DNA from: an uncultured Nitrospiraceae bacterium
GTDB taxonomy: Bacteria > Nitrospirota > Thermodesulfovibrionia > Thermodesulfovibrionales > Dissulfurispiraceae
DNA length: 64,000 nt
Reading direction: 5' to 3'
Assembly (NCBI GenBank): GCA_963727805.1
Contig: CAVSHF010000005.1
Span: 1-64,000, forward strand
Shown here: positions 15,001-18,000 of the stretch, one piece after another
How the letters are laid out: each line of letters starts with the position of its first letter
Numbering within the stretch: the first letter of the stretch is position 1
Position numbers: made by a program

Positions 15001-18000
15001 TAATCGTTTAAAGACATGGTACCCCCTTAGTTGTTTTCGATAAGGTTATCCGCTGAGAAGTGGGCAGCATACCACTTCTGTAACTCCTGATTACTTGTTA
15101 GGTAACGTCCTCCACCCCAAGACAGCCGACCGATTCAAACGAAGGCGCGAGAATCCACTGCTCGTGTCCATAATTTTCCAGTTCTCTTTTGCTATGACTC
15201 CGTACCTCCCTTGTCATTTCACTTATTCGATTTTGCATCACCATACTTCTTCTCTTTTCTGATCTTATAGATAGAAAGCATTTTCTTGACAACGAGAGGA
15301 AAGAGCCCCAGAAGCGCAAAGGAGATGATCAACCCCGGAGAAAGAATTCCAGAGAGCGAGTCGATCTTTGCTATTTCCTTACCTGCATTCACATATACTA
15401 CGGTCCCAGCCAACATTCCAATCTGAGAAACCCAGTAGAAGGTTCTAAGCGGCATCTTCGTGAGCCCCATAACAAGATTGATAAGCCAAAAAGGAAAGAT
15501 AGGGATCAATCGTAAAGTAAACAAGTAAAAATTTCCCTCCATCGCGATCCCCTCGTTGACCTCTTTGAGCTTGTCTCCAAACCTCCCCTGTACCCAGTCT
15601 CGTAAGACAAAACGAGATACGAAACACGCTAAGGTTGCACCGATTGTGCTTGAGAAGGAAACTACAATGGTGCCTATCAATAATCCGAAAAGCGCTCCCC
15701 CTGCAAGAGTCATGATTGCGGCACCTGGCAAAGATAATGACGTCACGAGGATATAGATAACCATATATGCCGAGATCACGATGAGGCGGTGATTGGCGTA
15801 GAGGACAGCCAAAGTCGCCTGAGACGCCTTGACATAAGAAAGGGTAAAATACTGTCCGAGGCCGAGCACCTTAAAGAGTACTGCCAGTCCGACCACGAGG
15901 GTTACAACTATTATCCTCTTTGTGATGTTTTTATTAATCACTCTTTTTGCCTTGACCCCTCATGATCGGGTAATCCTGGGCCAACATTGTCAATGCCCCG
16001 CCGAGCTCCCCCACAACTCCTCAAGCCGGTGGTCACGACCGCACCTGCCACGGTAGTATTTATAGCGGATCGGGTTCTTCTTATAATAATGCTGATGGTA
16101 GTCCTCGGCGGGGTAGAACTCAGTCGCTTGCACGATCTCGGTAACAATTGGCTCCTTGAAGGGTTTGCTCTTCTCTAATGTCTCCTTCGACTTCATTGCC
16201 AACCGCTTCTGCTCCTCATTATGATAAAAAATAGCGCTGCGATACTGATGCCCCGTATCGCAGAACTGCCGGTCCTTGACAGTCGGATCGATATTGTGCC
16301 AAAACACGTTGAGGAGCTTATCATACGTCACTTTTGTAGGATCATAAACGACCTGAACTGATTCGGCGTGCCCAGTCCCGCCTGCGGATACTTCTTTGTA
16401 AGTAGGATTTTTTTTCTGACCGCCAGTGTAGCCCGATGTGACTGAAATAACACCCGGAATCTGGTCAAAGGGGTGCTCCATGCACCAAAAGCAGCCACCA
16501 GCGAAGGTTGCTTTCTCAAGATTCCGTTCCGCCATGACCATCGTCATGGTTAAAAGCGCCGCCGACAGTCCTATTACCAAGATAATGAGAGTTTTCATAG
16601 TCGTTCCTCCTCAATAATTGTTACAAGTAAATGCTCTTCGAGCTGGGTTGCTATCAGACAGCTGTATTAATACTGGCGATTTCAACCCTGTTATTGAAAA
16701 TATGGTCATTTAACTATTTAACTGTTCCGAGATAAGTACCAGCCTTCTTTAAGGCCCGTTCCATTTCCTCAATCGTAATCACTGCTGGATCATAATAGAC
16801 GGTGTTTATTTCTTTAAAGTATTGAAAGCCTTTTTCGACCCTCGTCACTCCCTTCAGCCCTTCCAGGGCCTCCTTGCCAACGTCAAATCATTTGACATAG
16901 AAGATCACCTCAGATGTTACAGCATCCAGTGCGAGGGAAACCCCATAACCTGGAATGAGGAACATCGCTAGAACAAAAAGAGTCAGAGACTGAACGATTC
17001 GCTTCTTCATATCATCACCTTCCCTTCAGTTTACTCTCTAGCCACGTTGTGTCAAGTGCTCATAAGCTAATATCCATTCGCCGTGTTCGTTCAAACGAGG
17101 ACCAGTCTAATCGAACTTAACGATTGTGATCTGAATAAAACCATGCAGAACTTTAGCATCAAGAAAAATATCATGAGGAGCTTGGCAAATCAACGTACTA
17201 TGTCCAGAAGAATCAGATCCCGGTGAAACTCAAGCTCGAAAAATATAGCCTCATCTGTGGCAGCAACTTTTATCTTATCCATTGTCTTGATATACTTATA
17301 TTCATGAAAAAGAATTATCTCATTCACTTGCTTATCGGCATCCTCCTTCCGTCAGTCATCATTATGAATGCCTGTTCACAGAATTCTGATCGGCCAGTAA
17401 CGAAGGTCTCTGACACCGCATCAACAGTAGTCTCCGCCAAGGATGCTGCCAATGATCCATGGAGAACCTACGTGAAACCATCTAAAGAAGAGTTGAAAAA
17501 GAAACTTACCCCAATGCAATACAAAGTGACTCAGGAAAAAGGCACGGAGCCGCCTTTCAGAAATGAATACGATGACAACAAGAAGGAAGGTATCTATGTC
17601 GATATCGTATCCGGGGAGCCGCTGTATAGTTCAATAGATAAATTTGATTCAGGAACAGGGTGGCCGAGTTTTACAAAGCCGCTCGAACCCGGCAACATAG
17701 TCGAAAGAGAAGATCGTGGGCTTTTTACGACGAGGACGGAAGTACGCAGCAAGCATGCCGACTCTCATCTTGGGCACGTTTTCACCGATGGTCCCAAGCC
17801 GACCGGATTGCGTTATTGCATGAACTCAGCGGCCCTACGCTTCATCCCTAAAAAGGATCTCGAAAAAGAGGGATACGGACAATACCTGCAACTGTTTCAA
17901 AAATAGCCCCGAACCGCCTCTCGCCATATCTCCGACCAAACCACAAAACTCCTACTGAAAGTCTTTGATTTTACCAGTATCAGGAATTTGGTGACAGCTG

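What a model noticed while it worked through the whole genome (the two positions that open the first line are those of the whole stretch)
16714..17010. Secreted MerP-like HMA-fold selenoprotein upstream of periplasmic MsrA
A 98-codon gene (only its first 40 codons were called, g02568) reads through an in-frame TGA (U41, motif FYVK-U-FDVGKEAL). It encodes a signal-peptide-bearing single-domain protein of the HMA/MerP ferredoxin-like fold with Sec at the place of the first Cys of the metal-binding loop and no second Cys. It heads a gene row with a secreted MsrA, a DedA/VTT membrane protein and a MerA-like flavoprotein disulfide reductase. It reaches no Pfam or NCBIfam cut-off: a new selenoprotein (sub)family.
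Evidence so far: Call 30: TGA-joined ORF, coding score 0.17/0.29. Call 37: 6 of 6 matches in 26 genomes have exactly one TGA (51-77% id). Calls 40-41: 180 homologs among metagenome proteins; in 18 full-length ones aligned the Sec column holds W in 14 (probably TGA read as W by gene callers on short contigs; inference), C in 3 (P0061, P0065, P0110), R in 1; many hits are 55-aa post-TGA fragments. Call 61: hairpin GGCCCUGGAAGGGCU 17 nt after UGA. Call 45: AF2 pLDDT >90 for residues 31-98, beta-alpha-beta-beta-alpha-beta. Call 53: best PDB matches MerP 1osd (E 2e-4, TM 0.78 on target), ATP7B, CopZ HMA domains. Calls 36, 39: no Pfam hit; NF041115 UxxU metal-binding selenoprotein only 26 bits (cut 95). 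Call 42: n [...]
(Added by a program. Inside this text positions count along the whole contig: contig position 1 is position 1 of the stretch shown here. "Call 12" and the like, gene names such as g00115 and contig names such as C1 are that model's own, and its searches are not shown. The text may have been shortened before it was handed on; [...] marks where a part breaks off. The agent that wrote the report below was given it as the finding of a first reader that could run no searches.)

Follow-up and report, generated by a model that had tools for sequence, protein, structure and literature searches.

The report
New periplasmic selenoprotein linked to methionine-sulfoxide repair
A small secreted protein that carries the rare amino acid selenocysteine founds a previously unlisted protein family that sits beside the enzymes which repair oxidised methionine outside the cytoplasm, and it probably takes part in that repair.

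Summary
On the minus strand, window 16714-17010 encodes a 98-codon gene with an in-frame TGA at codon 41. In 80 related genome loci (83 copies), that column is TGA in 70, TGT/TGC in 12, CGA in 1 and TGG in none. A hairpin 18 nt after the TGA is kept by fixed synonymous sites only in the TGA forms. The genome has SelA, SelB, SelD and tRNA-Sec.

The mature 70-residue domain folds beta-alpha-beta-beta-alpha-beta. It is a small separate family (248 clusters among 1.84 billion proteins), under every Pfam and NCBIfam cut-off, and matches none of the family identifiers in a 2026 list of 119 selenoprotein families.

- The domain resembles the catalytic core of MsrA about as much as it resembles HMA domains. 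Sec aligns with MsrA's catalytic Cys, and HMA's CxxC loop is deleted.
- The conserved neighbours are secreted MsrA/MsrB (46 of 80 loci), a sulfite-oxidase-family molybdoenzyme (26) and a two-component system (41). DedA and the flavoprotein reductase occur in only 9.

Most likely role: a selenol redox protein in periplasmic methionine-sulfoxide repair. This is inferred. Metal binding is the main rival.

The parts
16714..17010 (-). Selenoprotein gene: 98 codons plus a TAA stop (16714-16716)
   Evidence: Translation with TGA=U. Full-length matches that span the TGA in 6 related genomes and in 80 genome loci.
16888..16890 (-). In-frame TGA, codon 41, read as selenocysteine
   Evidence: the column is TGA in 70, TGT/TGC in 12, CGA in 1 and TGG in 0 of 83 copies. 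SelA, SelB, SelD and tRNA-Sec are in the same genome.
16854..16872 (-). SECIS-like hairpin: nt 19-37 counted from the T of TGA, core stem GCCCU/AGGGC, loop GGA
   Evidence: 81% of cells are paired against 29-57% when the partner is slid. The five core pairs hold in 62-69 of 69 distinct rows. Loop G27 and G28 are invariant in 70 of 70. Synonymous sites are fixed only in TGA forms. Cys forms are 61% paired.
16930..17010 (-). Signal peptide, codons 1-27 (KKR, hydrophobic core, VSLA then LD); the cleavage site was judged by eye
   Evidence: Sequence. The N-terminal helix 6-16 and low pLDDT up to residue 30. Every aligned homologue has the same kind of N-terminus. No signal-peptide predictor was run.
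16717..16926 (-). Mature ferredoxin-like domain, residues 29-98 (strands 33-39, 55-63, 66-73, 93-96; helices 42-50, 80-90)
   Evidence: AF2 model with 65 residues at pLDDT 90 or more. Fold searches.
17028..17055 (-). Promoter-like site TTGACA-16-TAAACT upstream of the gene
   Evidence: Consensus scan, 10 of 12 matches. This is a pattern match only. The scan found 9 such sites in the region against 6.5 expected.
15990..16598 (-). Secreted MsrA with a GCFWC active site, 115 nt downstream on the same strand
   Evidence: PF01625 at 230 bits and TIGR00401 at 217 bits. Signal-peptide-like N-terminus. MsrA lies within 5 kb in 44 of 80 loci.
17223..17906 (+). Divergent MsrB. The likely true start is the ATG at 17304, which gives a lipoprotein-like signal ending in C (judged by eye)
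   Evidence: PF01641 at 163 bits and TIGR00357 at 209 bits. Sequence. MsrB lies within 5 kb in 43 of 80 loci.
15219..15941 (-). DedA/VTT-domain membrane protein, a local neighbour rather than a conserved partner
   Evidence: PF09335 at 84 bits. DedA or the flavoprotein reductase occurs in 9 of 80 loci.
13569..15017 (-). Cytoplasmic flavoprotein disulfide reductase (CxxxxC), under the cut-offs for MerA and all named subfamilies; a local neighbour
   Evidence: Pyr_redox_2 at 204 bits. NF004991 at 464 bits (cut-off 620). MerA TIGR02053 at 351 bits (cut-off 454).

Best explanation
Shown or well supported:
- The gene encodes a genuine selenoprotein. A hairpin 18 nt downstream of UGA-41 is the likely SECIS element that brings SelB and Sec-tRNA to the ribosome.
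- The product has an N-terminal signal peptide, so it is exported.
- The mature 70-residue domain folds beta-alpha-beta-beta-alpha-beta. Sec sits at the N-terminal end of helix 1, followed by an aromatic residue (F/Y42) and a near-invariant Asp43.
- The protein belongs to a small separate family of anaerobic Nitrospirota and Desulfobacterota-type lineages.
- The family is encoded in operon-like rows with secreted MsrA/MsrB (often fused as MsrAB), a TAT-signal molybdoenzyme of the sulfite-oxidase/MsrP family, an OmpR-type two-component system, and sometimes a YHS (seleno)protein or a Met-rich periplasmic peptide.

Inferred:
- Invariant Glu67 at the start of strand 3 lies beside Sec. This rests on the sheet topology; no distance was measured.
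- The exposed selenolate does redox chemistry in periplasmic methionine-sulfoxide repair or oxidant defence. Either it attacks oxidised Msr enzymes (Cys-sulfenate, or the disulfide of the GCFWC site), or it attacks sulfoxide or oxidant directly, as MsrA's catalytic Cys/Sec does with its Glu. This gives a Se-S or Se-OH intermediate.
- A second thiol or selenol then resolves that intermediate. Candidates are a second copy, the single-Cys/Sec YHS protein, or sulfide.
For: Selenoprotein status:
- TGA in 70, Cys codons in 12, TGG in 0 of 83 copies.
- All Cys forms sit on one side of a single branch with 94/85 support.
- In 70 distinct TGA forms, Ala+7 is GCC in 68 of 69 Ala codons, Leu+8 is CTG in 67 of 70, and Gly+10 is GGG in 61 of 66. 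The invariant Gly codons at +4 and +13 use all four codons.
- Hairpin 81% paired against 29-57% slid. Cys forms 61%.
- Mean MFE -14.0 (TGA forms) against -8.5 kcal/mol (Cys forms).
- SelB 354 bits, tRNA-Sec 69 bits, SelA 608 bits, and two SelD genes that each hold a TGA.

Redox role:
- MsrA or MsrB lies within 5 kb in 46 of 80 loci, and in 33 of the 47 loci with full flanks. Counting the molybdoenzyme as well gives 62 of 80 and 41 of 47.
- All 48 Msr proteins in the cluster begin with signal-like N-termini, and 32 are MsrA-MsrB fusions.
- The other recurrent neighbours are oxidative-stress genes: KatG, CMD/AhpD-like, Trx2, an ECF sigma factor. No P-type ATPase, RND pump, MerT, CcdA or DsbD recurs in 2 or more loci.
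- hhalign of the family against MsrA gives 93.4% probability and E 2.4e-7 over 56 columns. The stretch across strand 1, Sec and helix 1 has no gap. Sec falls on the catalytic Cys and Glu67 on MsrA's conserved Glu.
- VIA-align finds MsrA cores at rmsd 1.3-1.5 A over 66-67 residues. They include the Sec-type MsrA of C. oremlandii (4lwj, U16C), model 31..98 on chain 6..96.
- The only invariant polar residues are Asp74 and Glu67 (Asp43 is near-invariant). There is no second Cys, His or surface Met.
Against: - No biochemical data exist. Every step after export is inference.
- Similarity to HMA metal-binding domains is a little stronger than to MsrA: hhalign 95.8%; HMA HMM against the family, median 19.4 bits, versus 8.85 bits for the MsrA HMM; VIA Z 9.9 versus 8.4. 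PDB sequence hits are HMA only.
- MsrA residues that bind the sulfoxide are missing or changed. These are the Trp after Cys-Phe and two Tyr (residue roles recalled, not from a call). Asp stands in place of Trp, Phe/Trp in place of Tyr, and the C-terminal half of MsrA is absent.
- A single Sec with no resolving Cys cannot complete a two-electron cycle alone, and no reductant has been identified.
- 18 of 80 loci show no Msr or molybdoenzyme within 5 kb, though some of those contigs are short.
- Related genomes are not independent samples.
Confidence: 0.5

Rival explanations
1. It is a periplasmic metallochaperone or metal sink of the MerP/CopZ type. Sec is the soft ligand for Cu(I), Hg(II) or Ag(I), probably bridged between two copies. 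The gene is co-regulated with Msr enzymes because copper or oxidant stress oxidises periplasmic methionines.
For: - The best fold and profile matches are HMA domains: 1osd MerP E 2.4e-4; 6a71 Z 9.9; hhalign 95.8%.
- All 36 aligned members hit NF041115 'metal-binding (seleno)protein', and 24 hit CopZ, all under the cut-offs.
- A single-sequence genome search picks up HMA domains of 800-900-aa ORFs at E 1e-4 to 1e-2.
- A YHS-domain protein lies within 5 kb in 11 of 80 loci.
- Met-rich periplasmic proteins occur in a few loci.
- From recall, not from a call here: E. coli MsrPQ repairs the copper chaperone CusF under copper stress.
Against: - The GMTCxxC loop is deleted (6 residues) and only one soft ligand remains. 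The second-Cys position holds Val, Ala, Glu or Asp.
- No conserved His is present, and the one invariant Met lies in the middle of helix 2, which I infer to be core.
- No metal pump, MerT, or MerA above its cut-off recurs in the loci.
- The two-component system is under the heavy-metal subfamily cut-offs: TIGR01387 at 185 bits (cut-off 279), TIGR01386 at 157 bits (cut-off 293).
Confidence: 0.28
2. It is an accessory or sensor protein of the adjacent OmpR-type two-component system. Oxidation of the selenol reports periplasmic oxidant stress to the kinase, which then switches on the Msr genes.
For: A histidine kinase or response regulator lies within 5 kb in 41 of 80 loci, often directly upstream on the same strand. 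An ECF sigma factor lies directly downstream in 2 loci. Selenols react fast with oxidants (general chemistry, recalled).
Against: The window itself has no two-component system next to the gene. Linkage to Msr genes is at least as frequent. Nothing in the sequence points to kinase binding.
Confidence: 0.1
3. It is not a selenoprotein: the TGA is a true stop, a sequencing error or a pseudogene lesion, and only the 40-codon ORF or nothing is made.
For: Gene callers stop at the TGA. No public run laid here covers the codon independently.
Against: The TGA sits at the same column in 70 independent genome records, with conserved protein on both sides, Cys codons in 12 homologues and no TGG. A conserved downstream hairpin is held by synonymous-site constraint. 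The full Sec machinery is present. The 40-codon product would be little more than a signal peptide.
Confidence: 0.02

Closest known systems
HMA (heavy-metal-associated) domains: MerP, CopZ, N-terminal domains of Cu/Zn P-type ATPases (Pfam PF00403)
   Same: - Same beta-alpha-beta-beta-alpha-beta fold and size.
- The C-terminal half (GV..V......V.YDP.....eem..al..aG.Y) aligns without trouble.
- MerP is also a secreted single domain.
   Different: - No Pfam hit for the window protein.
- The GMTCxxC loop is 6 residues shorter and holds one Sec instead of two Cys.
- The genomic company is Msr enzymes, not metal pumps or mer genes.
NF041115 UxxU 'metal-binding (seleno)protein'; listed as 'putative mercuric reductase' family in the 2026 review PMC13188914, Table 1
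   Same: A small HMA-like selenoprotein. All 36 aligned members give a weak hit, best E 2.7e-7.
   Different: The score is 26.3 bits against a cut-off of 95. It has one Sec (U-x-x-V) and not UxxU.
MsrA (PF01625), especially the selenocysteine MsrA of Clostridium/Alkaliphilus oremlandii (PDB 4lwj, U16C)
   Same: - The ferredoxin-like core superposes at rmsd 1.3 A over 66 residues.
- Strand 1, Cys/Sec + Phe/Tyr, and helix 1 align without gaps.
- A Glu at the start of strand 3 is shared.
- The genes are neighbours.
   Different: - About 70 residues instead of about 155.
- It lacks the 17-residue insert between strands 2 and 3 and the whole C-terminal half.
- Asp stands in place of the Trp of GCFWG.
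- Under the Pfam cut-off: 2 of 36 members give weak hits.
- No resolving Cys.
Periplasmic hypochlorite defence MrpX-YedY1 (MsrP) of Azospira suillum (PMC4436054; I saw only the search listing and the start of the abstract)
   Same: A secreted Met-sulfoxide reductase is encoded with a periplasmic Met-rich peptide and a dedicated regulator. Met-rich peptides, MsrP-like genes and an ECF sigma factor occur in some loci of this family.
   Different: I know of no selenoprotein in that system. Here MsrA/MsrB are the main partners, and the regulator is mostly a two-component system.
NF041384 YHS domain-containing (seleno)protein
   Same: Another small secreted protein with one conserved Cys/Sec. It is encoded next to this gene in 11 of 80 loci, and the neighbour in L037 scores 164 bits against a cut-off of 70. 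The 2007 Olavius symbiont paper lists it as a selenoprotein (PMC1976440, section 12 read).
   Different: An unrelated fold and family. It is a possible partner, not a relative.

Membership tests
Bacterial selenoprotein (general criteria) | In-frame UGA conserved among homologues, with conserved protein on both sides | tested here: met
   TGA in 70 of 83 genomic copies. 6 of 6 strong matches in related genomes have one TGA.
Bacterial selenoprotein (general criteria) | Cys-containing homologues at the Sec column | tested here: met
   12 of 83 copies have TGT or TGC. 21 metagenome proteins have C there. Together they form one side of one branch.
Bacterial selenoprotein (general criteria) | Stem-loop shortly downstream of UGA with G in the apical loop. 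The spacing rule of about 16-37 nt is recalled from bSECISearch, not from a call. | tested here: met
   Hairpin at nt 19-37 from the T of TGA. Loop GG is invariant in 70 of 70. 81% paired against 29-57% slid. Synonymous sites are fixed. SelB binding was not tested.
Bacterial selenoprotein (general criteria) | Sec-insertion machinery in the same genome | tested here: met
   SelB 354 bits, tRNA-Sec 69 bits, SelA 608 bits, SelD 361 and 332 bits, all over their cut-offs.
HMA domain (PF00403) | Score over Pfam's gathering threshold | tested here: not met
   No hit at E up to 1 for the window protein. 1 of 36 members hits at E 0.017. A PF00403 search of the own genome lists 5 places, none of them this gene.
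HMA domain (PF00403) | Beta-alpha-beta-beta-alpha-beta fold | tested here: met
   AF2 model. HMA chains score Z 8-9.9 at rmsd 1.8-2.2 A over 60-67 residues. Foldseek E 2.4e-4.
HMA domain (PF00403) | GMxCxxC loop with two metal-binding Cys | tested here: not met
   The motif is V-K-U-[FY]-D-V-G. There is one Sec or Cys and no second Cys. The loop is 6 residues shorter than in the HMA profile.
NF041115 UxxU metal-binding (seleno)protein | Curated cut-off of 95 bits and the UxxU motif | tested here: not met
   26.3 bits. The best E among 36 members is 2.7e-7. The family has a single Sec.
MerP (TIGR02052) | Curated cut-off of 92.55 bits and a mer operon context (MerT, MerA) | tested here: not met
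   14.2 bits. The flavoprotein neighbour is under the MerA cut-off, 351 against 454. No MerT was seen among the recurrent neighbours.
MsrA (PF01625) | Score over Pfam's gathering threshold | tested here: not met
   No hit for the window protein. 2 of 36 members hit weakly, best E 0.035.
MsrA (PF01625) | Catalytic Cys/Sec at the N-terminus of helix 1 followed by an aromatic residue, plus the conserved Glu on the neighbouring strand | tested here: met
   hhalign puts U41 on the Cys of GGCFWC, F/Y42 on Phe and E67 on the Glu (93.4%, E 2.4e-7). Model 31..98 falls on 4lwj 6..96 at rmsd 1.3 A. The residue-level match in the structure is inferred from these ranges.
MsrA (PF01625) | Remaining substrate-binding residues (Trp of GCFWG, the Tyr of GYTGG, and the Tyr/Asp of the C-terminal half; roles recalled) and the full ~155-residue domain | tested here: not met
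   Asp stands at the Trp position and Phe/Trp at the Tyr position. The C-terminal half is absent.
NF041383 VPGUxxT thioredoxin-like (seleno)protein, type 2 | Curated cut-off of 275 bits | tested here: not met
   30.8 bits, over profile positions 144-203 only. 36 of 36 members hit weakly. MsrA hits the same profile stretch. No member sequence could be obtained: 0 of 301 genomes of the phylum have the family.

The most novel reading that the evidence does not exclude
The family is a 70-residue periplasmic selenoenzyme. It has an MsrA-type active site (Sec, aromatic residue, acid residues) on an HMA-size scaffold. It acts either as a minimal, thioredoxin-independent sulfoxide or oxidant reductase, or as the missing periplasmic reductant that recycles secreted MsrA/MsrB in anaerobes whose loci carry no DsbD/CcdA-thioredoxin relay. 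In sequence space it also bridges the HMA and MsrA families, which otherwise barely recognise each other (hhalign 11%).
Probability: 0.25. Interest if true: 0.8.

Novelty: new variant of a known kind. Interest (0 to 1): 0.6.

Why it matters
How secreted MsrA and MsrB get their electrons is known for only a few bacteria: thioredoxin-like domains fed by DsbD or CcdA, and MsrQ for MsrP (recalled, not from a call). The loci here carry no such relay. Instead they carry a small secreted protein with a single selenol. If that protein is the redox partner, or a mini-reductase itself, it would be a new way of driving protein repair outside the cytoplasm. It would also be a compact selenoenzyme that is easy to express and test.

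The family adds an entry to the prokaryotic selenoproteome. Gene callers currently cut it into fragments, or read it under a code in which TGA gives W. It also ties HMA domains and the MsrA core together at the sequence level.

Tried and rejected
- Complex prediction. A job with a natural Cys-form homologue (L082) and its neighbouring MsrAB returned 'no answer', score 0.00 against a mark of 0.32. This counts neither for nor against binding.
- Fused forms. A search for longer proteins found none at E up to 0.01 among 441 candidates. This is weak evidence.
- NF041383. No member was found in 301 genomes of the phylum, and the control genomes did not ring either. Why both this protein and MsrA hit profile positions 136-233 stays unexplained.
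- Rfam. Nothing relevant at E up to 10 in 16600-17100. I do not know of a general bacterial SECIS model in it.
- Whole-stretch fold. The 76 nt after the TGA fold no better than shuffles (z -0.94). The case for the hairpin rests on comparison between genes, not on energy.
- Public runs. 20 runs share some words. In the 4 runs laid, no contig covers 16887-17027. The one RNA run carries only pieces 90-95% like the msrA gene. Nothing follows about expression or about the codon.
- Earlier findings of this scan, looked up by sequence: nothing.
- ESM Atlas, queried with a Cys-form. It returned unnamed clusters, probably the family's own, at 0.81-0.82 and an HMA cluster at 0.75. These are leads only.
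- Heavy-metal type of the two-component system: under the subfamily cut-offs.
- Identity with the 'MerP' selenoprotein of the GOS paper: rejected. Those read fragments carry a different motif around U (supplement file 3 of PMC2398784).
- A paper search for 'TsoY' (a UxxV selenoprotein in the 2026 list) gave only unrelated papers. The NCBIfam scan lists no NF047643 hit at E up to 1.
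Full report
**1. What is in the sequence.**
The feature lies on the minus strand. 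Window 16714-17010 (-) reads as 98 codons plus TAA, with a single TGA at codon 41 (16888-16890) in the context FYVK-U-FDVGKEAL. Under table 11 the frame falls into a 40-aa and a 44-aa ORF.

The N-terminus (KKR, a hydrophobic stretch, VSLA then LD) looks like a Sec-type signal peptide. That is my reading by eye; no predictor was run. An AAGGTGA stands 5 nt before the ATG. A promoter-like TTGACA-16-TAAACT lies at 17055-17028 (a pattern match only).

Downstream on the same strand follow:
- a secreted MsrA (15990-16598);
- a DedA/VTT membrane protein (15219-15941);
- a cytoplasmic flavoprotein disulfide reductase (13569-15017);
- a SoxA/TsdA-type cytochrome c (13156-13557).

A secreted, probably lipoprotein, MsrB is transcribed divergently (17223-17906, likely start 17304).

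**2. Is the TGA a selenocysteine codon?**
- *Own genome.* It has SelB (354 bits), SelA (608 bits), two SelD genes that each hold a TGA, and a tRNA-Sec (69 bits). All are over their cut-offs.
- *Related genomes.* Of 60 searched, 6 have a strong match spanning the stop, and all 6 have exactly one TGA.
- *Species-level genome collection.* A scan gave 100 relatives. In the 80 loci kept (83 copies), the column is TGA 70, TGT 11, TGC 1, CGA 1 and TGG 0.
- *Metagenome protein database.* Of the 120 listed proteins, 76 show W at this column. All of these come from contigs of at most 2,497 bases. Nineteen are 55-aa pieces that start after the TGA, some from contigs up to 150 kb. Twenty-one have a true Cys. 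With no TGG in any genomic copy, the W's are best read as TGA called under a code in which TGA is Trp (inference).
- *Tree.* On a tree of the 83 copies, the Cys forms lie on one side of one branch (support 94/85). One Sec/Cys switch explains the pattern. The direction is open because the tree is unrooted. All Cys forms are in records titled Nitrospirota.

**3. The SECIS-like hairpin.**
Eighteen nt after the TGA lies a hairpin with core GCCCU-GGA-AGGGC (16854-16872).
- *Energy.* By energy alone the 76 nt are not unusual (z -0.94).
- *Synonymous sites.* In 70 distinct TGA forms, Ala+7 is GCC in 68 of 69 Ala codons, Leu+8 is CTG in 67 of 70, and Gly+10 is GGG in 61 of 66. The equally invariant Gly residues at +4 and +13 use all four codons. 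The 11 distinct Cys forms use mixed codons at +7, +8 and +10.
- *Loop.* The two loop G's are invariant in 70 of 70.
- *Pairing.* The eight proposed pairs are 81% paired, against 29-57% when the partner is slid. Compensating changes occur at three pairs (15 cells, reached by 2 of 500 shuffles). In Cys forms pairing is 61%.
- *MFE.* The mean MFE of nt +4..+63 is -14.0 kcal/mol for TGA forms against -8.5 for Cys forms.

The sequences are related to each other, so these numbers are not probabilities. The internal control (free Gly codons) and the external control (Cys forms) both point the same way. Rfam has no match.

**4. What kind of protein.**
AF2 with a 36-row alignment gives a confident model from residue 31 (65 residues at pLDDT 90 or more). 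The elements are strand 33-39, helix 42-50, strands 55-63 and 66-73, helix 80-90 and strand 93-96. Sec41 sits just before helix 1.

The family is small and self-contained. A profile search of 1.84 billion representatives finds 248 clusters at E up to 1e-3 and 112 at up to 1e-10. Pfam gives nothing for the window protein. NCBIfam gives only sub-threshold hits:
- NF041383: 30.8 bits (cut-off 275);
- NF041115: 26.3 bits (cut-off 95);
- CopZ and MerP: about 14 bits.

The invariant residues are F37, V39, G45, L49, L52, G54, E67, V71, Y73, D74, M83, L87 and Y93. D43 is nearly invariant. There is no second Cys and no conserved His.

**5. HMA or MsrA? Both.**
- *Structure.* Foldseek puts MerP first (1osd, E 2.4e-4, TM 0.78 on the target), but MsrA structures appear from rank 7 (2l90, E 2.4e-3). 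VIA-align against 48,161 chains gives HMA domains Z 8-9.9 (6a71_A: rmsd 1.9 A over 66 residues). It gives MsrA cores Z 6.9-8.4 with lower rmsd: 4lwj_A, the U16C form of the C. oremlandii seleno-MsrA, at 1.3 A over 66 residues, model 31..98 on chain 6..96; 5fa9_B at 1.4 A; 3bqe_A at 1.5 A.
- *Profile against profile.* The family matches 26 HMA domains of related genomes at 95.8%, E 6.8e-9, over 45 columns that leave out the Sec loop. It matches 39 MsrA domains at 93.4%, E 2.4e-7, over 56 columns that include it. HMA against MsrA gives only 11.2%.
- *Where the alignments break.* When the HMA alignment is forced to the N-terminus, the family lacks 6 residues exactly at GMTCxxC. Sec then lands on the second Cys or before the loop, depending on settings. 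Against MsrA, the stretch of strand 1, Sec and helix 1 is gap-free. U41 falls on the Cys of GGCFWC, F/Y42 on Phe, and E67 on the conserved Glu. MsrA then has a 17-residue insert and a whole extra C-terminal half.
- *HMM against sequence.* HMA is somewhat ahead: HMA HMM against the family, median 19.4 bits (36 of 36); MsrA HMM, median 8.85 bits (32 of 36). PDB sequence hits are HMA only.

My reading is a compact HMA-type domain whose Sec site is arranged like the catalytic site of MsrA. That Glu67 lies beside Sec follows from the sheet order (strand 3 antiparallel next to strand 1) and from the MsrA alignment. I could not measure distances.

**6. Genomic company.**
I searched the 80 loci by tblastn with the window's and relatives' proteins (E up to 1e-6, within 5 kb):

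| Neighbour | Loci of 80 |
|---|---|
| MsrA | 44 |
| MsrB | 43 |
| Histidine kinase | 40 |
| Response regulator | 36 |
| PF00174 molybdoenzyme | 26 |
| YHS protein | 11 |
| GH15 | 8 |
| Flavoprotein reductase | 8 |
| DedA | 7 |
| Cytochrome b | 6 |

Combined counts:
- MsrA or MsrB: 46 of 80;
- MsrA, MsrB or the molybdoenzyme: 62 of 80;
- among the 47 loci with 5 kb on both sides: 33 and 41;
- DedA or the reductase: 9 of 80.

Further details of the neighbours:
- The Msr proteins all start with signal-like N-termini, and 32 of 48 are MsrA-MsrB fusions.
- Their active site is GCFWC, with both Cys invariant.
- In many Desulfobacterota-type loci, a 218-aa TAT-signal PF00174 protein ends 20-60 nt before the selenoprotein gene.
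- The 258-aa form with a cytochrome b partner scores best on MsrP, 97 bits against a cut-off of 207.
- The YHS neighbour is a member of NF041384, the YHS (seleno)protein family (164 bits, cut-off 70).
- Met-rich secreted proteins occur in four to five loci.
- Representatives of 30 of the 54 neighbour clusters seen in 2 or more loci were scanned. Most of the rest were covered, or overlap the gene itself. They add cytoplasmic Trx2 (3 loci), KatG, CMD/AhpD-like, an ECF sigma factor, a DUF3641 radical-SAM protein and an ArsP permease (2 loci each). They add no P-type ATPase, RND pump, MerT, CcdA or DsbD.
- The two-component system is of the general OmpR/PhoB kind and is under the heavy-metal subfamily cut-offs.

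By record titles, 33 loci are Nitrospirota-type, 45 delta-proteobacterial/Desulfobacterota-type, one Planctomycetota and one SAR324. One is the Olavius Delta 1 symbiont (my count).

**7. How it most likely works.**
Shown or well supported: Sec insertion at codon 41, export, the fold, and the link to secreted Met-sulfoxide reductases.

Inferred: the selenolate at the N-terminus of helix 1, next to Asp43 and Glu67, performs redox chemistry in periplasmic methionine repair or oxidant defence. I see two forms of this.
- (a) *Partner.* It attacks the sulfenate or the CFWC disulfide of oxidised MsrA/MsrB, forming Se-S.
- (b) *Mini-enzyme.* It attacks sulfoxide or oxidant itself, forming Se-OH, as MsrA does with its Cys and Glu.

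Either way a second thiol or selenol must finish the cycle. That could be another copy (giving a diselenide), the single-Cys/Sec YHS protein, or sulfide, which these anaerobes make. None of this is tested.

The main rival is a MerP/CopZ-like metal site with Sec as ligand. HMA kinship and the YHS neighbour favour it. The deleted CxxC loop, the single soft ligand, the acidic surroundings and the lack of metal transport genes count against it.

**8. Comparison with the literature.**
- *PMC13188914 (2026 review).* I read Table 1 in full (section 7, parts 1-2). It lists 119 prokaryotic selenoprotein families or subfamilies, nearly all with a domain identifier. The window protein and its 35 aligned relatives reach the cut-off of no NCBIfam or Pfam model.
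- *PMC2398784 (GOS).* I read passages and searched supplement file 3. The 'MerP' selenoprotein there has a different motif.
- *PMC1976440 (Olavius symbionts).* I read passages and section 12. It lists a YHS selenoprotein and several hypothetical families. Its figures are not held, so I cannot exclude that one of the 15 unplaced TGA sequences mentioned there belongs to this family.
- *PMC9312934 and bioRxiv 10.1101/2022.07.06.499078.* I read passages only. Neither mentions such a protein.
- *Searches behind 'not in print'.*.
- *PMC4436054 (MrpX and MsrP).* I saw only the listing with the start of the abstract.

**9. Verdict.**
This is a real selenoprotein family that I did not find described. 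It has a solid comparative case and a clear, testable functional context. The fold is known, and the discovery of new selenoprotein families is itself routine. The unusual points are the single-Sec site on an HMA-size domain that mimics the MsrA active site, and the tight link to secreted Msr enzymes in loci without a known electron relay.

Noticed in passing
window 10433-12771 (+): An IS21-type pair: a Mu-transposase-C-like IstA of 522 aa and an IstB ATPase of 250 aa. It lies just beyond the cytochrome c and reductase end of the gene row and may have cut off what followed.
   Followed up: no
G000:C3:482960-483883 (-) and G000:C5:157506-158420 (-), outside the window: Two selD genes, each with one in-frame TGA. 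The genome therefore makes selenophosphate synthetase as a selenoprotein, twice.
   Followed up: no
L046:6302 (record titled uncultured delta proteobacterium): The single copy with CGA (Arg) at the Sec column also has Gly for the near-invariant Asp43 and Val for Ala48, and the hairpin is broken (GTC for GCC). It looks like a copy that lost Sec and is decaying.
   Followed up: partly
L062:3546-3905 and L062:7121; L078 (same contig): A Cys form and a Sec form of the family lie 3.4 kb apart in one locus. The Cys form is directly followed by MsrAB, and the Sec form by a Met-rich secreted protein. Several Nitrospirota genomes carry 2-3 paralogues.
   Followed up: partly
L036:7766-8164 (-), L057:7673-8176 (+), L062:7579-8061 (+), L072:3122-3562 (+): Secreted proteins made largely of Met-rich repeats, with no Pfam or NCBIfam hit. 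They recall the sacrificial Met-rich peptide MrpX, or Met-rich copper binders.
   Followed up: partly
L034:3085-4812 (+) (genome G003): Two adjacent ORFs both hit the UGSC family (PF24696): profile positions 2-67, then 102-168. This looks like another selenoprotein gene split by its TGA.
   Followed up: no
L034:10748-11019 (+) (genome G003): The flavoprotein reductase downstream of DedA survives only as two short tblastn pieces (residues 1-41 and 36-91). It is probably a broken gene there.
   Followed up: no
NCBIfam NF041383, profile positions 136-233: This stretch of the 'VPGUxxT thioredoxin-like selenoprotein type 2' model is hit both by the selenoprotein (30.8 bits) and by MsrA (36.5 bits). 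That family may therefore carry a related domain fused to a thioredoxin fold. No member could be fetched.
   Followed up: partly
window 13569-15017 (-) with 15219-15941 (-); also L035, L037, L043, L045, L047, L058: The DedA/VTT protein and the flavoprotein disulfide reductase travel as a pair. A GH15 glycoside hydrolase often lies between them and the Msr genes. The role of the pair is unknown.
   Followed up: partly
window 17223-17906 (+): The longest MsrB ORF starts at a GTG. An ATG 27 codons in (17304) gives a typical lipoprotein-like signal ending in Cys, so the called start is probably too early (by eye).
   Followed up: no
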